Positions 17,493 through 44,293 of a stretch of DNA of 44,319 nucleotides are shown one piece after another. The notes beneath the pieces were generated by a model. The model saw nothing but the letters and a program-made list of their open reading frames with translations, was not told the origin of the DNA and ran no database searches. Location: sequence record PP514360; one strand, 5' to 3'. The DNA comes from Escherichia phage HK1. Position 1 is the stretch's first letter. Every line of letters begins with the position of its first letter. The position numbers and the translations under genes are program-made.

Positions 17493-17783
17493 ATGGATAA
17501 GCTAAACGAGTGGCTATTCGCCCTGGCATGTCTGGCGGGTGGCTTCGTAGGCGCACGCATTCATGGTGAGGCTACGAAGGGGCCGCTAAACTTCGTTTTG
17601 TATGTTGTAGTTGGCTTCCTGTGTGCCATATTTGGCGCACCGGCTATCGCTGAGTGGGCTGGTTTGTCGGGGGAGCGCACTGTCGCCGGTTTGGGCTTCG
17701 TGACAGCAATTTTCTGGATGCCAATCGCCGACCGGATCAGGGAGACTATTGCGTCGTTCCGACTTCCGGGGGGTGCAAAATGA
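17493..17783 (+). CDS. holin-like membrane protein (96 aa, ~3 hydrophobic segments)
   Basis: Three hydrophobic stretches; sits two genes upstream of the endolysin. Confidence 0.5.
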   Translation: MDKLNEWLFALACLAGGFVGARIHGEATKGPLNFVLYVVVGFLCAIFGAPAIAEWAGLSGERTVAGLGFVTAIFWMPIADRIRETIASFRLPGGAK

Positions 17784-18025
17784 TTATCTCCGTCCTGTTG
17801 TTTGTTATCATCGGGGCTTCGTCCCTGTTTAACGTGTATGCGCCGTCCGTCCGGGATGGCATTTTCGGCCGGGTGCTGTATCTGTTAACGGCAATGGTCT
17901 GTATTATCGGATTGTTGCAAACAGGAGACGTATCTGATACCACCTGGACCGCGTTAATATGGCTGTTTGCATTGCGCACCCTGCGTAATGCTGTTTTGAA
18001 TGGGGTAAAACATGCGATTCAGTGA
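17780..18025 (+). CDS. holin/antiholin-like membrane protein (81 aa)
   Basis: MIISVLLFVIIGASSLF... hydrophobic; start overlaps the upstream stop (ATGA); immediately precedes and overlaps the endolysin gene. Confidence 0.5.
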   Translation: MIISVLLFVIIGASSLFNVYAPSVRDGIFGRVLYLLTAMVCIIGLLQTGDVSDTTWTALIWLFALRTLRNAVLNGVKHAIQ

Positions 18026-18503
18026 CAACGGTCTACGATTTACGGCAGCATGGGAGACGTTTAGCCCGGTGCCGTATTTCGCGACTAAGAAAGAGCAGGC
18101 CCGTGGCCTGTACACCTGGGGATATGGGCACACCGGCACTAACCCGCCTCGAAGTATTACCCGATCGGAAGCGCTGGAGCTACTTAAGCGCGATGTGGCG
18201 TATGCTGAGGACTGGGTGAACAAATACGCGCATAAGAGCATTAACCAGGCGCAATTCGACGCGCTGGTGGACCTGGTTATCAATGCAGGTCAAGGTCCGA
18301 TCGTACCGGACCATATTGCCAATGACTTCGATGATGCGGTGCGACTGGGAGACTGGGCGAAGGTCCGTGCTACTCTGCCGCAGTTCCGCAAGCAAGGTGG
18401 GGAAGTGCTTAAGGGTCTGGTACGCCGTGCAATCGGCAGACAGGCGTTGTTTGATGGTAAGCAGTGGGACGTTGCCGAGAAAATCGGGCGTAACGCTGCA
18501 TAA
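18012..18503 (+). CDS. endolysin (glycoside hydrolase family 24 lysozyme-like)
   Basis: GLYTWGYGHTG and overall length (163 aa) match the phage lysozyme/muramidase fold. Confidence 0.8.
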   Translation: MRFSDNGLRFTAAWETFSPVPYFATKKEQARGLYTWGYGHTGTNPPRSITRSEALELLKRDVAYAEDWVNKYAHKSINQAQFDALVDLVINAGQGPIVPDHIANDFDDAVRLGDWAKVRATLPQFRKQGGEVLKGLVRRAIGRQALFDGKQWDVAEKIGRNAA

Positions 18504-23665: not shown

Positions 23666-24752
23666 TCAATATATGGCGGATCGAATGATCCGCCGACACA
23701 TCTTCACCCAGCGCCTGAGCAATGACCAGGCGCGACGGGTGCTGGCTATGTGGGAGAAGTTCCGGCCTACGTTACTGGGAAAGCTGACTGAGTTGCTTGA
23801 TGGCAAATCGTCAATGAACAACAAGGCACTTTCAACCCTGCTAACGCAAATCGACAAGACCGTAAAAACGGAACTGCGCACCGAGTTTAAGGTGTTGGCT
23901 GAAAGCCTTCAGGAGTTTGCCGACACGGAGGCTGATTATCTCGCCGACACATTAACGGCAGCGATCCAGCCGGTGGTCGCCGTACCTGCGGTCGAGGTGG
24001 TTGGCGTAGTGACCGGTGCGCAGATCGCAGCGACGGCTATGAAAAACCCGTTCCAGGGAAATACCATGATGCAATGGCCTGATTCATTGTCTGAGTGGAC
24101 CAGGACGCAGATCGGGAATCAGGTGCGCGCTGGATTCATCCAGGGCAAGCCAACTATGGAAATTATAGCGGACGTGAGGCGCGCGCTCGGCGGTCGTAGC
24201 GCGCAAGCCATCTCGAGCGTTGTTAAGTCCGCAGTCAACCACTATGCGGCGACAGCCCGCGAACTAATGGTGAAAGCAAATGACGATATTCTCGAAGGTC
24301 GCCAATGGTTATCTACATTGGACACGCATACTTCTCCCATGTGCCAGCTACGCGATCGCCTGTTTTATCCGGTTGATGTTACTCCCGACACCAAAGGAAA
24401 GCGCGGCGGGAAAATGGTGGCTGGGTCACAATATGGCGCTGGGCCGGGTAAGTTGCATTATTGTTGCCGGTCGACGGAGACGTGGAAGGTTAAAGGCATG
24501 GAAGATTGGCCCAGTGGTAAGCGTCCGGCACTGAAGGCTGACGCGGGGCGATTGCTGAGTGAGCAGGCCGACGCGCAGACTGATTTCTTCTCATGGGTGC
24601 AGCGCCAGCCGCGCCATATCCTGGAGGAATTATACGGGGTGCAACGCGCCGACCAGATTATGCGCGGCGTGAAAGTCCCGAAGATGTTCACCGATTCCGG
24701 CGAACTAATGACTATCGCACAGCTTAAAAACCGGGGGTTATGGCGTGATTAA
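23649..24752 (+). CDS. head morphogenesis protein (Mu F / SPP1 gp7-like minor capsid protein)
   Basis: 367 aa ORF after the portal and overlapping its end; call rests on position and size. Confidence 0.6.
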   Translation: MAKTINQYMADRMIRRHIFTQRLSNDQARRVLAMWEKFRPTLLGKLTELLDGKSSMNNKALSTLLTQIDKTVKTELRTEFKVLAESLQEFADTEADYLADTLTAAIQPVVAVPAVEVVGVVTGAQIAATAMKNPFQGNTMMQWPDSLSEWTRTQIGNQVRAGFIQGKPTMEIIADVRRALGGRSAQAISSVVKSAVNHYAATARELMVKANDDILEGRQWLSTLDTHTSPMCQLRDRLFYPVDVTPDTKGKRGGKMVAGSQYGAGPGKLHYCCRSTETWKVKGMEDWPSGKRPALKADAGRLLSEQADAQTDFFSWVQRQPRHILEELYGVQRADQIMRGVKVPKMFTDSGELMTIAQLKNRGLWRD

Positions 24753-25074
24753 ATATGCGGCTATTGGACTGGTTATGGGTCTGGCGGTAGGATTCTGGCT
24801 AGGTGACTCCTACCGCGCTGGCGTAGTGGCGAAGGCGGCGCAAGAAGCGCAATCCCAAGCCCAACGGCAGCAAACTAAAGTAATTGAGCGCTCCGTGCAG
24901 GCAGAACAAGCCCGCGACGTGGAATACCGGACTATCACAAAAGAGGTTGTTAAATATGTTACGCGCCCTAACCGCCCTGATTGTAGTTTTGACGCTGAGC
25001 GCGTGCGGATCAAGCAGCGTGCCGTTGATGCCGCTAACGGAATCGGCACTGCGACCGCCGTGCAAGTTCGATAA
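24745..25074 (+). CDS. putative i-spanin (Rz-like: N-terminal TM helix plus coiled coil)
   Basis: MIKYAAIGLVMGLAVGFWLG transmembrane segment followed by a Gln/Ala/Glu-rich helical region; partly overlaps a lipoprotein ORF in another frame. Confidence 0.45.
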   Translation: MIKYAAIGLVMGLAVGFWLGDSYRAGVVAKAAQEAQSQAQRQQTKVIERSVQAEQARDVEYRTITKEVVKYVTRPNRPDCSFDAERVRIKQRAVDAANGIGTATAVQVR

Positions 25075-25186
25075 CCCGTCTGCGGACCCCGACGAAGATT
25101 TGATGATTGACGTGAAAAATATGGAATGCGGGGCGAAGCTAAGGGCGCAGGTGCTGGAGTTGCAGCAAATAATTAAGGGGCCATAA
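24956..25186 (+). CDS. putative o-spanin (Rz1-like outer-membrane lipoprotein)
   Basis: MLRALTALIVVLTLSACGSS: signal peptide with LSAC lipobox; Pro-rich mature part; overlaps the 3' end of the i-spanin candidate out of frame; AAGAGG SD. Confidence 0.45.
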   Translation: MLRALTALIVVLTLSACGSSSVPLMPLTESALRPPCKFDNPSADPDEDLMIDVKNMECGAKLRAQVLELQQIIKGP

Positions 25187-37122: not shown

Positions 37123-37730
37123 CCACGTTTAAATTGTACGGCGTCTTAGGGCGTCGTTTTGGTAAAGTGCATAAGCTGGACTGCTTCACACCGGGAGAAG
37201 GCATCACCGGCCTGTGTGTGAAGTTGCCAGGGCTACAAGACTTTTTAATGTCGGCCCACCTGGACAATATGATGTTCAAGGTGCGCAAAGGCAACCACAC
37301 GATGACCGGTTATGATGAGCTTGGCGAGTTCCACGGTAACCGCGTCGTCACCATCGCGCCGGTTATGACGGGGGCAAAAAGCGGACTGGGCCAGTTGCTG
37401 GCGGGTGTCGCGATTGTAGTGGCGTCGTTCTATACTGGCGGACTTGCTACTGCCGCTTTCGGGGCTTCGGCTGCAACCGCTGCCGCTATCGGTACGGCTA
37501 CATTTTCGTTTGGCATGTCGCTTGCGCTGGGCGGTGCTATGCAATTGCTGTCGCCGCAGCCGAAAGGATTGCAGACCCGGCAGGACGTGGATAACAAAGC
37601 GTCGTACGCGTTCGGCGGCCCTGTAAACACGACCGCGCAAGGCACGGCACTTGGTGTATTATGGGGCGAGCGTGAGATCGGCGGCGCTATTATTTCCGCA
37701 GGAATCGTAACCGAGGACTTGAACGAATGA
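37113..37730 (+). CDS. tail assembly protein (lambda I-like)
   Basis: 205 aa with a Gly/Ala-rich hydrophobic C-terminal half; overlaps the K-like stop; immediately upstream of the J-like gene. Confidence 0.65.
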   Translation: MAMTTFKLYGVLGRRFGKVHKLDCFTPGEGITGLCVKLPGLQDFLMSAHLDNMMFKVRKGNHTMTGYDELGEFHGNRVVTIAPVMTGAKSGLGQLLAGVAIVVASFYTGGLATAAFGASAATAAAIGTATFSFGMSLALGGAMQLLSPQPKGLQTRQDVDNKASYAFGGPVNTTAQGTALGVLWGEREIGGAIISAGIVTEDLNE

Positions 37731-40700
37731 CGATTGTCTATGACGTCACAGGCCATAAAGGCGGCGGTGGCAAACAGCACACCCCACAGGAGACACCAGA
37801 TAGCCTGCATTCTCTGGCTAAAATCCGCATCTTGCTTGCGCTGGGAGAAGGTGAGTTCGAAGGTATTCCAGACCCTAACGAATTACGGCGGCGCGTATAT
37901 CTGGACGGAACACCGATCCAGAATGCAGACCTGTCTGAAAACTTCCCCGGCGCGCGTGTGGAGTTCCGCCCCGGAACACAGCACCAGGATGTGATCCACG
38001 GATTTTCAGCGGTGGAAAGTGAGCAATCTGTCGGCGTAAAACTGGAAAACGGCACGCCGTGGGTGCGCCAGATTAACGACACCAGTTTGGACGCCGTGCG
38101 CATTCGCATAGGCATTCCGGCCCTATACACAAACGAAGATAATGGCGACCTGGTGGGCGGGCGCATCGACTATAAGATCGTTGTGTATACGGATAACGCG
38201 GACCCGCGTGAGTTCAGATTCGCCGCCGTTGGTAAAACAATGTCGCTATATGAGCGCGACCACCGCATCGAATTACCGCCGAACGTTAACACCGGCTGGC
38301 GCGTGGAGATGCACCGCATAACGGCAGACTCCACATCGGCGAAAGTGGTTAATGATATCCAGGTGCAATCCATCACTGAGATTATTGACGCCCGCCTGCG
38401 TTATCCGCTAACCGCGCTGTTGTTCGTGGAGTTCGACGCTAAAGCGTTCCAGAACATCCCGCGCGTGTCCATTAAGTGCAAAGGTCGCAAAGTTCTAATA
38501 CCGAACAACTACGACCCGATCAATCATACCTATTCCGGGGACTGGGACGGCACGTTTAAACGCGCATGGACAGATAACCCTGCGTGGCACTGGTACGATA
38601 TTTGTATTACTGAGCGCTTCGGCCTCGGTCGGCGTATCAAACCGCAAATGCTGAACCGGTACGCGCTCTACCAGATCGCGCAGCGCTGCGATCAGTTGGT
38701 CAGCGACGGCAACGGCGGACGGGAAATCAGATTTAAGAATGATATGTACATCCAGTCGCAGACAGACGCCTGGACCGTGCTTAAGGATTTAGCTGCCATC
38801 TTCGCCGGGATGACCTGGTGGGGAAACCAAATGTTGAATATCGTCAGTGACCAACCGGTCGCAGCAGTGTCGCACACTATCACCAACGCCTCGGTTATTG
38901 ATGGTCGATTCGACTACGCATCTGGCAGCCAGAAAACGCGGTACTCCACTTTCGCGGTAGCATACGGCAACCCGAAAAACCACTATGATGACGCTATCGC
39001 AACGGGCCAGCGCGTCGAACTGGTGCGCCGCCATAAGATTAACCGTCTTGATATAACGGCGATCGGCTGTACGCGCGAATCTGAAGCGCAACGCCGCGGA
39101 CACTGGGCGCTAATCTCCAACCAGTTGGACCAGCAGGTCAGCTTTAAGGTTGGCATGGAGGGGCTATTCTTTATTCCTGGTAGCGTAGTCGCGATCGCGG
39201 ATACTAATATTTCTGGCGGATTCGAGACTCGCGGCGGTCGCCTGTTGTCAGACCCTGGCACGCGTACCGTGCTTAACACAGACAGCGAAATCACATTCCG
39301 CCCTGGTGATAAGTTCCTGGTGCGCACCGATAGCGGAAATGTGGAGACTCGCGAGATCGCCAGTGTCAACGGCAACAAGGTAACGCTAAAAACCGCACTG
39401 GATGCCGACCCGATTCCAGGCCAACCGTTTTGCGTTGATGGCGATGATATCCAGTTGCAAAAATTCCGCATCACCGATCTGGAGTATGACGACTCTACGA
39501 GCACTTTCTCGGTGCGCGGGATTGAATACAACGATAGCAAATATGATGCCGTTGATAATGGCGCACGACTAGACCCAGGCATCTTTACGCAAGTGCCAGA
39601 CGGTGTATTGAAGGGGCCAGAATCCGTTACCATCACCCCGTCGCAGATCTCATCGCAAGGCCAGCTAATCACCAACGTGGATATTGTTTTCCCGCCGGTG
39701 AAGGATGCCGTGGTGTATGAAATCCAGTGGCGGCGTACAAGCCTGCAGAATATGGCGGTCCAGTGGGGTAACGACTGGGTGAATATCCCGCGCACGGCAT
39801 CGAACGGCGCGCACATTCCTAACGTGTTCTCCGGAAACTATCAGGCGCGCGTCCGTGCGATCGGTATGGGCGAGATTTCATCCCCGTGGGTGTCGTCCGC
39901 CATCACGCCGGTGGAAGGTCGCCTCGGTGGGCTTAACGCACCAATCATCACCAGCGCGATTTCGGGTCTGCATCAAATTCTATGGAAGTGGAACCACAAC
40001 AACGCCGCGACGGATATTTCTTACACCGAGCTTGAAGTCCGCAAGACGGGCGAAACGGAATGGAAGTTCTTAACAAACGTCCCGTATCCTGGCGCGGAGT
40101 ACGCGCAAACGTCGCTGGAGTTCGGAATTTACCAGCAGTTGCGCGCCCGTGTAGCGGATAAAATCGGCAACCTGTCGGACTGGTCGGCCCCGTTTGAAGG
40201 GCAGGTGAGTGACAAAGTTGACGAGTACATGAAGGGGCTTGATGACGAGTTCTTGACTTCCGAGGATGGTAAACGCTTCCAGGAAGCAATCGACACGATC
40301 CCGCAGGGTATTTACGAGGCGATGCTCACCGACGCGCAGCAATTGTTCAACGCCCGCGCCGAGTACAAGGGTATTTATGCGGAAATCAAGGTGGCGTATA
40401 ACGTTGCCACGGACGCCCACAAGGCAGTAGCGCAACTGGAAACGTTGATCGGCACACGACTTGATGATGCGGAGGCGTCAATCCACACGTTGCAGACAGC
40501 GCAAAGCACGCACGAACAAGCGTTCGCCCAGTACCAACAAACTGTCGCCGCTAAGTTTGGGGAGCAGGAAGCCGCCATCCAGCAGGTACAAACGGCAACG
40601 GCAGACGTAGCTGGCGCACTGGCGGAGTACAAGACCCAGGTCGCGGCACAGTTCGGTCAGCAGTCTGCCGCTATCGAGCAGAAGATGACGTCTTCGTTTA

Positions 40701-41173
40701 ACCATGCTGGTGGCAGCGCCACATATAGCCTTAAGGCTGGCGTGACGTATAACGGGGCTTACTACGATGCCGGTATGCAGCTTTCAGTTGTTGCGGAAGG
40801 TGGCTCGGTTAAATCCCGCATCGCGTTCAAGGCGGACCAGTTCTACATCATGCACCCATCTAATGGGTCGCTTTCGTCCGCGTTTATCGTTGACGGCGGT
40901 CAGGTGTACATTGACACCGCACGCATCAAGAACGCGTCTATCAACTTCGCGCAGATCACGGACACGCTGCAGTCGAATAACTGGAATCCGGGTCACAGCG
41001 GCTGGCGCATCCAGAAGGACGGCGGGGCGGAGTTCAACAACGTAACGGTACGAGGCAACTTGTTCGCTACTACTGGTAACTTCGGATTCTCTGGAGGGTC
41101 GGTACAGATCGACGCCACCGGCATTAACGTGCCATTACCGGGCGGGGGTAGGGTGAAAGTGGGGACGTGGTAA
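37727..41173 (+). CDS. tail tip / host specificity protein (lambda J-like)
   Basis: 1148 aa, largest ORF of the tail block, directly after the I-like gene. Confidence 0.85.
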   Translation: MTIVYDVTGHKGGGGKQHTPQETPDSLHSLAKIRILLALGEGEFEGIPDPNELRRRVYLDGTPIQNADLSENFPGARVEFRPGTQHQDVIHGFSAVESEQSVGVKLENGTPWVRQINDTSLDAVRIRIGIPALYTNEDNGDLVGGRIDYKIVVYTDNADPREFRFAAVGKTMSLYERDHRIELPPNVNTGWRVEMHRITADSTSAKVVNDIQVQSITEIIDARLRYPLTALLFVEFDAKAFQNIPRVSIKCKGRKVLIPNNYDPINHTYSGDWDGTFKRAWTDNPAWHWYDICITERFGLGRRIKPQMLNRYALYQIAQRCDQLVSDGNGGREIRFKNDMYIQSQTDAWTVLKDLAAIFAGMTWWGNQMLNIVSDQPVAAVSHTITNASVIDGRFDYASGSQKTRYSTFAVAYGNPKNHYDDAIATGQRVELVRRHKINRLDITAIGCTRESEAQRRGHWALISNQLDQQVSFKVGMEGLFFIPGSVVAIADTNISGGFETRGGRLLSDPGTRTVLNTDSEITFRPGDKFLVRTDSGNVETREIASVNGNKVTLKTALDADPIPGQPFCVDGDDIQLQKFRITDLEYDDSTSTFSVRGIEYNDSKYDAVDNGARLDPGIFTQVPDGVLKGPESVTITPSQISSQGQLITNVDIVFPPVKDAVVYEIQWRRTSLQNMAVQWGNDWVNIPRTASNGAHIPNVFSGNYQARVRAIGMGEISSPWVSSAITPVEGRLGGLNAPIITSAISGLHQILWKWNHNNAATDISYTELEVRKTGETEWKFLTNVPYPGAEYAQTSLEFGIYQQLRARVADKIGNLSDWSAPFEGQVSDKVDEYMKGLDDEFLTSEDGKRFQEAIDTIPQGIYEAMLTDAQQLFNARAEYKGIYAEIKVAYNVATDAHKAVAQLETLIGTRLDDAEASIHTLQTAQSTHEQAFAQYQQTVAAKFGEQEAAIQQVQTATADVAGALAEYKTQVAAQFGQQSAAIEQKMTSSFNHAGGSATYSLKAGVTYNGAYYDAGMQLSVVAEGGSVKSRIAFKADQFYIMHPSNGSLSSAFIVDGGQVYIDTARIKNASINFAQITDTLQSNNWNPGHSGWRIQKDGGAEFNNVTVRGNLFATTGNFGFSGGSVQIDATGINVPLPGGGRVKVGTW

Positions 41174-41180
41174 AGGAGAA

Positions 41181-41201
41181 GGGGCCATCCGGCCCCTTTT
41201 T
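41181..41201. terminator. bidirectional terminator between J-like gene and antisense cassette (GGGGCC-N-GGCCCC family)
   Basis: GGGGCC-atcc-GGCCCC followed by TTTTT on the plus strand; on the minus strand the hairpin follows the stop of the 321-aa gene. Confidence 0.6.
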
Positions 41202-42165
41202 AATAGATGTTAGGAATTACGAGTAACGGGGTGGGTACTGCAATATTTTTACCCGGCATTTGGAATTGCTGCCGTGAATAGTTGCCGATTACCCGGTTTT
41301 TGGCGATGCGCACATTACCGCCTGCCATTCGAATCCCGTTCATTCGAACGTGATTGTAGCCGCCGTTGTTCTCAATGAGCGCGCCGGTATACGAAAGCTG
41401 GACCAGGCTATTGCCTATGTACTGATCGCCGCCGCCGATATAGATAAGGCGGTCATAAACAAATGGCTTATTCACTGTTGAGAACGTGACCTGACCCTGG
41501 TTGTTTGTCATGGTGATGCCGTTTCCAGGGGTGGGTGGCGTATTGTTGAATATAACCAGGTCCATTTCAACGGCAGCGCCTACGTCGTCAATCCCGCCAT
41601 AGGACGCATTACGGACGATAATACTTCCGCCATCGAAGCCGACCGACACGTTTCCGTCGTCCCAGCGCGCGAATGGGACACCGCCTACAGGTAACGGCAT
41701 ACTTCCGTTCACCCACACGCGCTGCGCATATTGGCAGGTCATTAGCCTGGATACATTTGATATGGCGGTGAAGTCCGTCGAGTTCGCCACCAGTAACCCC
41801 GCGTTGCGCGAACCAACCGGCAACACTTCCATGATCACCCCGCCCCATGTTGGAAGCCCGCTATATGCGCCATATGCGTCTTCACCTCGCAAGGTGATTC
41901 CGCCATCCCCGTTACGTTGTACTGAGGTGACGTAGAAAGGGTCGGGCAAGACCAGTGTCTGGTCGAATACTTCTATAACTTCAACGGGGCTTGTGAGCGC
42001 GACGACCAGATCTGACCCTGGCGTTAGCTGAGTGTTAATAGTAAGCGTCTTATCAGACTGGCAGCGCTGATAGAATGAGGTACAGAATGACGGCGCGCGA
42101 AGTCCTGCGGTTATCTCCATGCGCGGCCTTCCGTCGTTGTAGTCGATAAGTATCCCAGCGCCCAT
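41200..42165 (-). CDS. hypothetical beta-rich protein (321 aa), co-transcribed with the lipoprotein; possible receptor-binding/host-range protein
   Basis: Minus-strand ORF rich in Gly/Asn/Val/Thr; ATG at 42165 overlaps the lipoprotein stop (TAATG); ends at a bidirectional terminator. Confidence 0.5.
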   Translation of the reverse strand: MGAGILIDYNDGRPRMEITAGLRAPSFCTSFYQRCQSDKTLTINTQLTPGSDLVVALTSPVEVIEVFDQTLVLPDPFYVTSVQRNGDGGITLRGEDAYGAYSGLPTWGGVIMEVLPVGSRNAGLLVANSTDFTAISNVSRLMTCQYAQRVWVNGSMPLPVGGVPFARWDDGNVSVGFDGGSIIVRNASYGGIDDVGAAVEMDLVIFNNTPPTPGNGITMTNNQGQVTFSTVNKPFVYDRLIYIGGGDQYIGNSLVQLSYTGALIENNGGYNHVRMNGIRMAGGNVRIAKNRVIGNYSRQQFQMPGKNIAVPTPLLVIPNIY

Positions 42166-42389
42166 TACTTCCACTCCCGTGATTTAACTGAAACAGTGCC
42201 GGAAAAATTGCCGTCACTATCGGCAGACAGCCCAGTGAATCGCAAGTCCACATCCCCGGAGGGCACTTTTTGCCCGTCAACGTAGCGCAACATGCAGCTA
42301 CCGTAAGCCATAGTAATGCAATCGCCGTTGTTGCGTTCTACAGCACAGCCGGACAACATAACCGCACAAATCATAATTAAAGTTTTCAT
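42165..42389 (-). CDS. small outer-membrane lipoprotein (Cor/Llp-like superinfection-exclusion candidate)
   Basis: MKTLIMICAVMLSGC: signal peptide with LSGC lipobox; 74 aa; AGGAAA SD; promoter with ATTGGTTGCAT motif at 42421-42448; antisense between the J-like and tail fibre genes. Confidence 0.5.
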   Translation of the reverse strand: MKTLIMICAVMLSGCAVERNNGDCITMAYGSCMLRYVDGQKVPSGDVDLRFTGLSADSDGNFSGTVSVKSREWK

Positions 42390-42420
42390 GGTATCATTTC
42401 CTATATTTGGTTGAGTTTTA

Positions 42421-42448
42421 GTATTACACCGCTCGACCATTAATGCAA
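42421..42448 (-). promoter_or_regulatory. sigma70-like promoter of the lipoprotein cassette with ATTGGTTGCAT motif
   Basis: Minus strand ATTGGTTGCAT; TTGCAT-16 nt-TAATAC; downstream sequence AATGGTCGAGCGG resembles AATTGGTCGCG at the 5836-5864 promoter. Confidence 0.4.
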
Positions 42449-42469
42449 CCAATTTATGAGGATTCAGCT

Positions 42470-44293
42470 ATGGCAGCGGGTACACTATCCGTAACGAATA
42501 ACAGCAAGGCGGTTGTCGGGGTAGGCACGACGTTTACCTCGTTTACAGCTGGCGACTTCTTATCGCTGGTAGTGGGGCAAGTCCCATACACTGTTGCTAT
42601 CGCGTCAGTCGAAAGCGACACCGCGCTTACGCTGGTGCTGCCGTTCGACGGCCCAACGGCAGCAGGCCTTGCGTGGGATGGCGTTAAGCGCGACACCATG
42701 TCGCTGGCAACGATGGGCGTAACAGTACAGGCACAGAAAGCGTTGCGCTTGATGCTCGCGGACGAAAACAACTGGCGTGCGATCTTCGGAGACGAAGAAG
42801 AAATCACGGTAACGCTGCCGAACGGGCAAGTTATGCAGGGTATGTCTTGGGGCTACCTGTCGCAATTGATGAAGCAAGTTGACCCCGTTGAAATGCGCAA
42901 CCTGCAACAACAAGCCGCGGCATCTGAAGCAGCAGCGCAAGGATTTCGCAATGAGGCCGAAGGCTTCAAGACTGAGACGGCTGGCATTCGCGACGCCACC
43001 AATCAGATTAAGGCAGAGACGGCAGGCATTCGCGACGCAACTAATACCATAAAAACGCAGACTGATCAGATTAAGGCTGATACGCAGGCGATCAAAAACC
43101 AGACTAACCAGATCAAGACTGACACCGGCGCTATTCGCGACGAGGCCAACGCCGCGAAGGCTGAAGCGCAAGCCGCCAGCACTGCCGCGCAGGGATTTCG
43201 CGATCAGGCCGAAGAATGGGCGCAAAGCGTAAACCCCGACAATCTGCTAACAAAATCCGGCAACCTCGCGGGGCTTGCGGACAAAGGCGCGTCGTGGGCT
43301 AACCTTATGCCGCCCGGACCGCTTCGCGTAGGTGCGGACCCCGTAAACCCCCTGGACGCTGCGACTAAAGGGTGGGTGTGGCGCGGTCTTGACGACGTGG
43401 GGCTTTGGGGCTTACGCAATAATTACGCGTCAGACCCGGCGAATGGCGCAGAAGTATACGGCGGTCGATTTGACTCCTCTGTGAACGTCGCAGGGGTCGA
43501 AAAATACAGAATGTCGATTCAGCTTCAGGGCCGTAATAACGTAGACGCCTGGACCCGTTTGGCAACCGTTAACGCCCTCGATCCAAGTACCTCGCCGTCG
43601 TGGGACTTTAAATATGATGGCAAGATTATTTTCAACAAAGGACTGAATCCAGCGTCCACCTCGGCGTCGCCAGGTAATACCTACGTAACCCTTGCGAATA
43701 CATGGATGGACAGCCAATACTCGGGACACGTCGGCTTTGTTGGAGGCGGGGCGGGGACGAGTGGTGGCGGGTGGCGTAACTTTATTTCGTTCGGCGCGCT
43801 GATCCACCCGCCCGCCGGTAACTCGCACCCCCATGCTATGATTGCGCAGGTCTTTGATTATGATTTGGCGTCCGGTACACAGCCTAACGGCGATAGCGTT
43901 CGAAACACTACATTCAACCCCGAAGCATACGATATCACCTTCGGCAACAACTTAGGGACTGTTAACTATATTTTCGCAAAGTCCCCGGTATCCGATAGGG
44001 CGCTGAAGCATGATATCGCCCGGATCGATACTCAAGTTGCGTACGATAACGTTATGACTATGGAGTACTCGTCCTTTGTTTATAACTACGACAAAAAAGA
44101 GACGGTTAGACGTGGTTTTATCGCGCAGCAGTTGGAAGAGATCGACCCGCAGTATGTCCGCAAGTACACCAACGCAACCGGTAAAGAGTTTCTGGCATTA
44201 GATGAAAACGTCCTACTACTTGATCTAATCGCGACTGTTCAGCATTTGGCGGCGAAGGTTGAGGCGTTAGAAAGTAAGTTAGCGGAGAAATGA
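42470..44293 (+). CDS. tail fibre protein with C-terminal intramolecular chaperone (peptidase S74-like) domain
   Basis: Start at MAAGTLSVTNNSK (GAGGA SD); central heptad-like repeats (xTxxIKx/xTxxIRD, about 8 units); C-terminus SDRALKHDIARID...GFIAQQLEEIDPQYV resembles self-cleaving fibre chaperone domains. Confidence 0.75.
   Translation: MAAGTLSVTNNSKAVVGVGTTFTSFTAGDFLSLVVGQVPYTVAIASVESDTALTLVLPFDGPTAAGLAWDGVKRDTMSLATMGVTVQAQKALRLMLADENNWRAIFGDEEEITVTLPNGQVMQGMSWGYLSQLMKQVDPVEMRNLQQQAAASEAAAQGFRNEAEGFKTETAGIRDATNQIKAETAGIRDATNTIKTQTDQIKADTQAIKNQTNQIKTDTGAIRDEANAAKAEAQAASTAAQGFRDQAEEWAQSVNPDNLLTKSGNLAGLADKGASWANLMPPGPLRVGADPVNPLDAATKGWVWRGLDDVGLWGLRNNYASDPANGAEVYGGRFDSSVNVAGVEKYRMSIQLQGRNNVDAWTRLATVNALDPSTSPSWDFKYDGKIIFNKGLNPASTSASPGNTYVTLANTWMDSQYSGHVGFVGGGAGTSGGGWRNFISFGALIHPPAGNSHPHAMIAQVFDYDLASGTQPNGDSVRNTTFNPEAYDITFGNNLGTVNYIFAKSPVSDRALKHDIARIDTQVAYDNVMTMEYSSFVYNYDKKETVRRGFIAQQLEEIDPQYVRKYTNATGKEFLALDENVLLLDLIATVQHLAAKVEALESKLAEK

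What the first reader, a model, noticed from the sequence alone, without database searches (positions are those of the whole stretch)
41200..42448. Antisense lipoprotein cassette (Cor/Llp-like) between the J-like tail tip gene and the tail fibre
A 74-aa lipoprotein (signal peptide with LSGC lipobox) is followed, with an overlapping TAATG junction, by a 321-aa beta-rich protein, both on the minus strand and bracketed by a promoter (42421-42448) and a bidirectional terminator (41181-41201). Small lipoproteins encoded next to receptor-binding genes (Cor of T1/phi80-like phages, Llp of T5) block the phage's own outer-membrane receptor to exclude superinfection. The partner protein could be a receptor-binding or host-range factor.
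Basis: partly seen in the sequence, partly recalled or inferred. Interest (0 to 1): 0.6.

Follow-up and report, generated by a model that had tools for sequence, protein, structure and literature searches.

The report
Known LptD receptor-binding and exclusion gene pair
The two antisense genes after the phage's tail-tip gene are the already described pair used by Dhillonvirus-type coliphages: a tail-tip protein that binds the outer-membrane protein LptD, and a small lipoprotein thought to block LptD from inside so infected cells cannot be re-infected.

Summary
On the minus strand, a 74-aa lipoprotein gene (42165-42389, lipobox LSGC) overlaps by TAATG a 321-aa gene (41200-42165). They lie between the J-like tail-tip gene and the lateral tail fibre gene of a Dhillonvirus-like E. 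coli siphophage.

The 321-aa protein is Pfam DUF6453. It is 88% identical over its full length to the receptor-binding protein (RBP) of phage Oekolampad (Bas18), whose cryo-EM structure bound to the LptDE lipopolysaccharide translocon is solved (PDB 9RPT, 9RPW, 9RQI; Dunbar et al., PNAS 2025).

The lipoprotein is Pfam PF24052. It is 93% identical to Oekolampad's predicted exclusion lipoprotein and 36% identical to Rtp45, which is solved on the periplasmic face of LptDE (9RPS). The lipid-anchor cysteine and the disulfide cysteine pair are conserved.

The cassette is therefore an LptD-specific RBP plus superinfection-exclusion module, a locus type recognised since Maffei et al. 2021.

It works like T5 Llp and T1 Cor but is not a sequence member of that family, and the RBP is unrelated to T5 pb5. 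The terminator hairpin is real and conserved. The promoter is a weak consensus match, though its conservation pattern fits an extended -10 promoter. Novelty: already known. Interest is low.

The parts
37727..41173 (+). J-like central tail-tip protein (1148 aa). Its C-terminal Phage_Tail_Tip domain (aa 982-1118) is the presumed docking site for the separately encoded RBP. This is context, not part of the cassette.
   Evidence: Pfam FNIII-A_GpJ 6e-39, Phage_Tail_Tip 1.5e-37, Phage-tail_3 1e-16. Maffei 2021 and the 2026 preprint place the RBP locus directly downstream of gpJ.
41181..41201 (.). Shared intrinsic terminator hairpin between the convergent J gene and RBP gene: GGGGCC ATCC GGCCCC, with a T5 run on the + strand and UUCUCCUUU on the - strand.
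   Evidence: Folds at -19.3 and -15.7 kcal/mol, z = -3.2 and -2.6. Stem invariant in 7 phages. Annotated as a terminator in phage WFI.
41200..42165 (-). Receptor-binding protein of the central tail fibre (321 aa, DUF6453), predicted to bind the extracellular face of LptD.
   Evidence: Pfam DUF6453 1.2e-120. PDB 9RPT/9RPW/9RQI chain C E = 2e-188 over the full length. 88% identical to bas18_0025 and 33% identical to Rtp44.
42165..42389 (-). Superinfection-exclusion lipoprotein (74 aa precursor; mature protein from Cys15, about 60 aa). Predicted to sit in the inner leaflet of the outer membrane and bind the periplasmic face of LptDE.
   Evidence: Pfam PF24052 1.2e-21 and phrog_4281 1.2e-32. PDB 9RPS_D (Rtp45) 8.5e-9. 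93% identical to bas18_0026. Cys24/Cys32 align with the Rtp45 Cys30-Cys38 disulfide.
42345..42389 (-). Lipoprotein signal peptide with lipobox LSGC. Cys15 is the acylated residue. Ala at +2 means no inner-membrane retention signal.
   Evidence: Read directly from the translation. G14 and C15 are invariant in the family alignment.
42420..42448 (-). Putative sigma-70 promoter of the lipoprotein-RBP operon: -35 TTGCAT (42448-42443), 17-nt spacer, extended -10 TG-n-AATACT (42428-42420).
   Evidence: Not called by the consensus scan. The hexamers and TG are invariant in 7 phages, and substitutions cluster in the spacer. Inferred only.
42470..44293 (+). Lateral tail fibre gene, divergent from the cassette. 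The likely true start is the second ATG (MAAGTLSV...). It has a C-terminal intramolecular chaperone domain. This is context.
   Evidence: phrog_1980 5e-123 and Peptidase_S74 2.4e-11. Most relatives annotate the start 80 nt from the lipoprotein start, and the first ATG is not conserved.

Best explanation
The cassette is the LptD-specific allele of the 'RBP locus' that small siphophages (Drexlerviridae, Dhillonvirus, Queuovirinae) carry directly downstream of their gpJ homologue.

The 321-aa DUF6453 protein is the terminal receptor-binding protein. It is assembled non-covalently on the C-terminal tip of the J-like protein. [quoted passage not shown] This commits the phage to irreversible adsorption and DNA ejection.

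The 74-aa protein is exported, lipidated at Cys15 and sorted to the inner leaflet of the outer membrane. There it binds the periplasmic side of LptDE and pushes a hairpin up the barrel lumen. This displaces loop EL4 outward, so the RBP can no longer bind.

The effect is to exclude superinfecting LptD-dependent phages and to protect progeny from being wasted on cell debris, as Llp does for T5.

Both genes are read from one minus-strand unit, lipoprotein first. The unit runs from a promoter in the 80-bp gap shared with the divergent lateral tail fibre gene to the hairpin shared with gene J.

**Shown here:** gene structure, family membership, near-identity to the structurally characterised proteins, and synteny.

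**Inferred:** LptD dependence of this particular phage, the exclusion phenotype, the promoter, and the timing of expression.
For: - **RBP identity:** it matches PDB 9RPT/9RPW/9RQI chain C at E = 2e-188 over residues 1-321. It is 88% identical with no gaps to Oekolampad bas18_0025. Those entries are the SfLptDE-RBP-Oeko complexes.
- **Family-wide LptD specificity:** Bas18, Bas14 and Bas25 were among the phages whose receptor was sought by isolating resistant mutants. Dunbar et al. state that Maffei identified LptD for Oekolampad (Bas18) and for AugustePiccard (Bas01). Homologues range from 32% identity (TheodorHerzl/Bas14) and 33% (Rtp44, 96% identical to the Bas01 RBP) through 61% (VogelGryff/Bas25) to 88% (Bas18). 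Bas84 is 96% identical in the RBP and is predicted to target LptD.
- **Unrelated alleles for other receptors:** FhuA-, BtuB- and YncD-specific loci encode unrelated protein families.
- **Lipoprotein identity:** PF24052 at 76.9 bits against a cut-off of 27. It is 93% identical to bas18_0026, which is SE-Oeko, and 36% identical to Rtp45. It matches 9RPS_D at 8.5e-9.
- **Conserved residues:** G14, C15, R19, G22, C24, G30, C32, G39, V42, P43, G45, G53, E72 and W73 are invariant. They include the pair equivalent to the Rtp45 Cys30-Cys38 disulfide. The published mechanism is summarised.
- **Conserved gene order:** the same order (J forward, RBP and lipoprotein antisense, lipoprotein upstream) is found in Rtp, Bas18, Bas84, WFI, JL1, EK99P-1, Psq-1 and the temperate phage mEp515.
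Against: - No experiment exists on this phage. Thirty-eight substitutions separate its RBP from RBP-Oeko, and the published contact tables are images, so only Gln299 could be checked; it is conserved.
- Exclusion has not been demonstrated for the Oekolampad-type lipoprotein, because SE-Oeko failed to express. The structural mechanism rests on Rtp45 at 36% identity.
- The Rtp45 exclusion phenotype itself could not be verified, because Wietzorrek 2006 is not held in the library.
- Co-transcription of a presumably early-acting exclusion factor with a late virion protein is unexplained.
- The promoter is a weak consensus match.
Confidence: 0.9

Rival explanations
1. The lipoprotein is a true Cor/Llp-family protein that blocks FhuA, and the phage uses FhuA (or another TonB-dependent transporter) as its receptor.
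For: It is a small outer-membrane-type lipoprotein next to the tail-tip gene, as in T1 and T5. There are weak hits to phrog_1119 (8.9e-4) and to T1 Cor by BLASTP (E = 0.004). T1 Cor gives a sub-threshold hit to PF24052 (17.7 bits against a cut-off of 27).
Against: The phrog_1119 hit covers only residues 1-30, the signal peptide and lipobox. T1 Cor and T5 Llp match that profile over their full length at 3e-30 and 1e-19. BLASTP against Llp gives E = 2. The partner RBP is 88% identical to an LptD binder and unrelated to pb5. FhuA-specific RBP loci encode a different protein family.
Confidence: 0.03
2. The lipoprotein is a lysis spanin (o-spanin or u-spanin), as one database record annotates a homologue, and the 321-aa protein is a 'membrane protein' moron, as PHROG labels it.
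For: The homologue in phage Chapo is annotated u-spanin. phrog_1265 is labelled 'membrane protein, moron'.
Against: The lipoprotein has no C-terminal transmembrane segment. The window has its own overlapping spanin pair: the i-spanin at 24745-25074 and the o-spanin at 24956-25186, matching Rz-like phrogs at 5e-36 and 2.5e-26. The holin and endolysin lie at 17.5-18.5 kb. The homologues are solved as an LptDE ligand and as a soluble RBP.
Confidence: 0.02
3. The module is as described, but this diverged allele (12% different from RBP-Oeko) recognises a different LptD variant or host range. Alternatively, the lipoprotein's main role is to protect newly made RBP and virions from LptD in the producing cell rather than to exclude other phages.
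For: There are 65 variable positions among 7 close RBPs, spread along the whole protein. RBP loci are hot spots of exchange. The RBP locus is 99.9% identical to Lzu_P1, while the first 25 kb of the genome is at best 95% identical to other phages. The lipoprotein is translated just ahead of the RBP from the same unit.
Against: RBPs as distant as 32-33% identity still use E. coli LptD. Nothing in the sequence distinguishes the two roles.
Confidence: 0.05

Closest known systems
Oekolampad (Bas18) RBP-Oeko (bas18_0025; PDB 9RPT/9RPW/9RQI) and SE-Oeko (bas18_0026), Dunbar et al. PNAS 2025 (PMC12685063)
   Same: Same genus, same locus and same gene order. The RBP is 88% identical over 321/321 aa and the lipoprotein is 93% identical. 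Both belong to the same Pfam families, DUF6453 and PF24052.
   Different: There are 38 substitutions in the RBP. The lipoprotein is one residue longer (Lys74), because the usual stop is mutated so that the two genes overlap by TAATG instead of being 2 nt apart.
Rtp44/Rtp45 of phage Rtp (Drexlerviridae; PDB 9RPS for Rtp45-LptDEM)
   Same: Same two families and the same antisense arrangement after gpJ, with the lipoprotein upstream and overlapping the RBP start. The lipid-anchor cysteine and the disulfide cysteine pair are conserved.
   Different: Identity is only 33% (RBP) and 36% (lipoprotein). The phage belongs to a different family, and in Rtp the lateral tail fibre gene is not adjacent.
T5 pb5 (oad) and Llp; T1/phi80/N15 Cor
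   Same: Same logic: a terminal RBP plus a small outer-membrane lipoprotein that binds the periplasmic face of the phage's own receptor and prevents RBP binding.
   Different: There is no detectable homology (Llp BLASTP E = 2; pb5 E = 3; Cor similarity confined to the signal peptide). The receptor is FhuA, not LptD. Llp acts by long-range allostery through a TonB-dependent transporter, whereas Rtp45 acts by steric displacement of EL4. In T5, llp is divergent from oad with its own promoter; here the two genes are co-directional and overlapping.

Membership tests
DUF6453 / LptD-binding RBP of small siphophages (RBP-Oeko, Rtp44) | Sequence match to Pfam PF20051 above the gathering score, over the full length | tested here: met
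   402.7 bits against a cut-off of 25, profile positions 1-290 of 291.
DUF6453 / LptD-binding RBP of small siphophages (RBP-Oeko, Rtp44) | Full-length homology to the structurally characterised LptDE-bound RBP | tested here: met
   9RPT_C E = 2e-188. 283/321 identical with no gaps.
DUF6453 / LptD-binding RBP of small siphophages (RBP-Oeko, Rtp44) | [quoted passage not shown] | tested here: met
   J ends at 41173 and the RBP gene occupies 41200-42165 on the opposite strand. Same layout in 8 other phages.
DUF6453 / LptD-binding RBP of small siphophages (RBP-Oeko, Rtp44) | Binds LptD; infection depends on LptD loops EL4, EL5 and EL11 | not testable with these tools
   Needs plating on LptD mutants or a pull-down. 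Of the published contact residues, only Gln299 is given in text, and it is conserved.
PF24052 / phrog_4281 Rtp45-type exclusion lipoprotein | Profile match above the curated threshold | tested here: met
   PF24052 76.9 bits against 27; phrog_4281 1.2e-32. Rtp45 itself gives 1.3e-37 and 9.8e-33.
PF24052 / phrog_4281 Rtp45-type exclusion lipoprotein | Signal peptide with lipobox, and no Asp at +2 (outer-membrane sorting) | tested here: met
   MKTLIMICAVMLSG-C15-A16. G and C are invariant in the family.
PF24052 / phrog_4281 Rtp45-type exclusion lipoprotein | Cysteine pair equivalent to the Rtp45 Cys30-Cys38 disulfide | tested here: met
   Cys24 and Cys32 align with Rtp45 Cys30 and Cys38 and are invariant in 5 diverse members (paper).
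PF24052 / phrog_4281 Rtp45-type exclusion lipoprotein | Binds the periplasmic face of LptDE and prevents RBP binding or infection | not testable with these tools
   Structure exists only for Rtp45 (36% identity). The Oekolampad orthologue could not be expressed.
Cor/Llp family (phrog_1119) | Full-length match to the Cor/Llp profile | tested here: not met
   E = 8.9e-4 over residues 1-30 only, against T1 Cor 3e-30 and T5 Llp 1e-19 over their full length. BLASTP against Llp E = 2. BLASTP against Cor E = 0.004, mostly signal peptide. T5 Llp is absent from the PDB hits at E <= 10.
Cor/Llp family (phrog_1119) | Inactivates FhuA | not testable with these tools
   Unlikely, given the LptD-type RBP partner.
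T5 pb5-type RBP | Sequence similarity to pb5 | tested here: not met
   Best BLASTP E = 3.
Spanins (o- or u-spanin) | A C-terminal transmembrane segment (u-spanin) or a partnered i-spanin gene, within the lysis cassette | tested here: not met
   No C-terminal hydrophobic segment. A separate Rz/Rz1-like pair lies at 24745-25186.

The most novel reading that the evidence does not exclude
DUF6453 plus the PF24052 lipoprotein may be a portable LptD-targeting kit that reaches beyond small siphophages. Kuravirus-type podophages (76-79 kb) encode a short protein with the J-type Phage_Tail_Tip domain, immediately followed by a DUF6453 protein. Members of the group also encode, about 45 kb away among early genes, a PF24052 lipoprotein. 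This would predict LptD as the terminal receptor of that podophage group, with an early-expressed exclusion factor. [quoted passage not shown] For the window itself, the corresponding novel reading is only that the overlapping lipoprotein-then-RBP operon couples exclusion to RBP synthesis.
Probability: 0.3. Interest if true: 0.45.

Novelty: already known. Interest (0 to 1): 0.12.

Why it matters
It lets the terminal receptor of this phage be predicted from sequence as LptD, an essential and conserved outer-membrane protein. It also predicts which host mutations (LptD loops EL4, EL5, EL11) will give resistance, and predicts cross-exclusion with other LptD-dependent phages. This is useful for designing phage cocktails. 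It adds nothing conceptually beyond Maffei 2021 and Dunbar 2025. The one open point this allele could help with is a direct demonstration of exclusion by an Oekolampad-type lipoprotein, which the published study could not obtain.

Tried and rejected
- **PADLOC and NCBIfam:** no meaningful hits for either protein.
- **Single-sequence AlphaFold2 of the 321-aa protein:** mean pLDDT 29 and pTM 0.17, unusable, so no fold search was run. An 88%-identical experimental structure made a deeper alignment search unnecessary, so the large protein-database searches were not spent.
- **Consensus promoter and terminator scan:** It called a promoter-like site overlapping the lipoprotein start codon, and a terminator-like hairpin inside the lipoprotein gene at 42209-42225. 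Synonymous changes in relatives break that hairpin and its T-run, so I treat it as chance.
- **Wietzorrek et al. 2006 (Rtp45 phenotype):** not held in the library.
- **RBP-LptD and Rtp45-LptD contact tables:** they exist only as images in the supplement, so contact-residue conservation could not be mapped.
- **Spanin reading:** rejected after finding a separate spanin pair.
- **Cor/Llp membership:** rejected.

Full report
**What is in the sequence**

The window is a Dhillonvirus-like E. coli siphophage genome. The first 25 kb is up to 95% identical to Dhillonvirus records. The region of the finding is 99.9% identical to Escherichia phage vB_Eco_Lzu_P1 and 92-96% identical to several other Dhillonvirus phages.

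A 1148-aa J-like tail-tip gene lies on the plus strand at 37727-41173 (Pfam FNIII-A_GpJ, Phage-tail_3, Phage_Tail_Tip). After it, two minus-strand genes follow.

- **The 74-aa gene (42389 down to 42165).** Its product begins MKTLIMICAVMLSGC, a textbook lipoprotein signal peptide with lipobox LSGC. Ala at +2 means no inner-membrane retention signal.
- **The 321-aa gene (42165 down to 41200)**.
- **The junction.** The genes overlap in TAATG. Six relatives instead read TGG-TAA-TA-ATG. In this lineage the normal stop has become AAG (Lys74) and the next TAA is used.

Downstream on the plus strand is the lateral tail fibre gene (phrog_1980, with a C-terminal Peptidase_S74 chaperone domain). Its real start is probably the second ATG at 42470. 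Most relatives annotate that start, and the first ATG is not conserved.

**The flanking signals**

- **Terminator.** The hairpin GGGGCC-ATCC-GGCCCC at 41181-41196 folds at -19.3 kcal/mol on the + strand, where it is followed by U5. It folds at -15.7 on the - strand, followed by UUCUCCUUU. Only 2 of 200 shuffles fold as well. Its stem is invariant in seven phages, and phage WFI's authors annotated it as a terminator. The simple scan missed it, probably because the T-run can pair with the upstream A-tract, as is typical of two-way terminators.
- **Promoter.** Read as -35 TTGCAT (42448-42443), a 17-nt spacer, then TG-n-AATACT (42428-42420), it is an extended -10 type. In the seven-phage alignment both hexamers and the TG are invariant, while the substitutions fall in the spacer and the 'n'. 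I regard it as plausible but unproven.
- **Internal hairpin.** A terminator-like hairpin inside the lipoprotein gene is destroyed by synonymous changes in relatives and is chance.

**What the proteins are**

- **The 321-aa protein.** It is Pfam DUF6453 (1.2e-120) and phrog_1265. Against the PDB it matches one sequence, chain C of 9RPT/9RPW/9RQI, at E = 2e-188 over residues 1-321. [quoted passage not shown] Direct comparison with bas18_0025 gives 283/321 identities and no gaps.
- **The lipoprotein.** It is Pfam PF24052 'Phage lipoprotein family' (1.2e-21) and phrog_4281 (1.2e-32). It matches PDB 9RPS chain D, the exclusion lipoprotein Rtp45 of phage Rtp bound to LptDE-LptM (8.5e-9). It is 93% identical to bas18_0026, which the paper calls SE-Oeko, and 36% identical to Rtp45.
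- **Conserved residues.** Five diverse family members were aligned: the window, Bas18, Rtp45, temperate mEp515 and Kuravirus Paul. The lipobox Gly-Cys, Cys24 and Cys32 (equivalent to the Rtp45 Cys30-Cys38 disulfide) and the C-terminal Glu-Trp are invariant. This agrees with the paper's own alignment.

**How it most likely works**

The mechanism is taken from the homologues. Maffei et al. 2021 showed that small siphophages encode RBP loci with cognate exclusion proteins directly downstream of gpJ. They also showed that alleles of this locus match the terminal receptor without exception. LptD was identified as the receptor for Bas01 and Bas18. Bas14 and Bas25 were in the group handled by resistant-mutant isolation. 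Their RBPs are 33%, 88%, 32% and 61% identical to the window's protein (with Bas01 counted through its 96%-identical relative Rtp44).

A 2026 preprint confirmed that four unrelated protein families at this locus track FhuA, BtuB, LptD or YncD. It also predicts LptD for Bas83 and Bas84. The Bas84 RBP is 96% identical to the one here.

Dunbar et al. showed that RBP-Oeko inserts deeply into the LptD lumen, with a 1,700 square-angstrom interface contacting EL3-5 and EL11. It binds an open state of the translocon. The point mutations D352Y and Y671N abolish both binding and infection.

[quoted passage not shown] It sends a hairpin up the lumen and displaces EL4 by up to 20 angstroms, which is incompatible with RBP binding.

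By homology, the window's 321-aa protein is the LptD-binding tip of the central fibre, and the lipoprotein is its exclusion factor.

- **Shown here:** the gene structures, the family memberships, near-identity to the characterised proteins, and synteny in Rtp, Bas18, Bas84, WFI, JL1, EK99P-1, Psq-1 and mEp515.
- **Inferred:** LptD dependence of this phage, the exclusion phenotype, and the transcription unit.
- **Caveat:** SE-Oeko itself could not be expressed in the published work. Exclusion by this subfamily therefore rests on a homologue at 36% identity.

T1 Cor and T5 Llp both belong to phrog_1119 over their full length (3e-30 and 1e-19). The window's lipoprotein and Rtp45 belong to phrog_4281/PF24052. 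They touch phrog_1119 only over residues 1-30, the signal peptide.

- BLASTP against T5 Llp gives E = 2.
- BLASTP against T1 Cor gives E = 0.004, largely signal peptide.
- T1 Cor scores 17.7 bits on PF24052, below the cut-off of 27.
- The RBP shows no similarity to T5 pb5.

So the cassette works like Llp/pb5 but is not a member of those families. The mechanism also differs: steric displacement in LptD rather than allostery through FhuA. The layout differs as well. In T5, llp and oad are divergent, each with its own promoter. Here the lipoprotein gene sits upstream of, and overlaps, the RBP gene.

**Rivals**

- **Spanin.** One database record annotates a homologue as u-spanin. I reject this reading. 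The protein has no C-terminal membrane segment. The window also has its own overlapping spanin pair at 24745-25186, and the holin and endolysin lie at 17.5-18.5 kb.
- **'Membrane protein, moron'.** This PHROG label for the RBP family is contradicted by the solved structures.

**Verdict**

The system is already described in the literature, down to atomic structures of proteins 88-93% identical (RBP) or homologous (lipoprotein). Novelty: already known. Interest is low.

The only mildly new item came up in passing. Kuravirus podophages carry a J-tip-domain protein followed by a DUF6453 protein, and members of the group carry an unlinked PF24052 lipoprotein. This suggests they too may use LptD. 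No paper in the library makes that link.

Noticed in passing
L011 4647-6693 (Kuravirus vB_EcoP_WFI101126) and L009 4968-5249 (Kuravirus Paul): In Kuravirus WFI101126, a 336-aa protein with the J-type Phage_Tail_Tip domain (2.7e-25) is immediately followed by a 344-aa DUF6453 protein (1.7e-25). In Kuravirus Paul, a PF24052 lipoprotein (5.5e-36) lies among early small genes. KBNP1711, HC-25922 and EC.W8-1 appear in the hit lists for both proteins, at positions about 45 kb apart. This suggests that these podophages may use LptD and have an exclusion lipoprotein. No paper in the library links Kuravirus with LptD.
   Followed up: partly
L010 1681-2915 (temperate phage mEp515); one search hit list: The same lipoprotein-then-RBP cassette, antisense to J, occurs in the temperate lambdoid phage mEp515 (PF24052 2.6e-31, DUF6453 1.6e-104). 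DUF6453 homologues at 30-54% identity occur in Klebsiella, Salmonella (SPN3UB), Vibrio (Vc1) and Aeromonas (AsXd-1) phages. LptD targeting may therefore be widespread outside E. coli.
   Followed up: partly
window 42443-42470: The mechanical ORF of the lateral tail fibre starts at ATG 42443, but that ATG is not conserved (TTGCAA in Bas18, JL1 and EK99P-1). Most relatives annotate the second ATG (42470, MAAGTLSV...), which has a GAGGA ribosome-binding site. The first ATG overlaps the -35 element of the opposite-strand promoter.
   Followed up: partly
window 42165-42170: The usual stop codon of the lipoprotein gene (TAA in six relatives) is AAG here.
   Followed up: yes
window 24745-25186 (+) and 17493-18503 (+): An overlapping two-component spanin pair (i-spanin 24745-25074, o-spanin lipoprotein 24956-25186) lies about 6 kb from the holin-like and endolysin genes (17493-18503). 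The lysis genes are therefore split between two places.
   Followed up: partly
window 41100-42500 compared with window 1-25000: The RBP locus is 99.9% identical to phage vB_Eco_Lzu_P1. The first 25 kb of the window is at best 95% identical to any record (Dhillonvirus sp. EcoIv6a_Kente), and Lzu_P1 is not among the top eight. This is consistent with modular exchange of the RBP locus.
   Followed up: no
searches hit lists: Near-identical copies of this coliphage cassette sit in records named 'Acinetobacter phage NJ01' and 'Campylobacter phage A127'. These are probably host misattributions in the databases.
   Followed up: no
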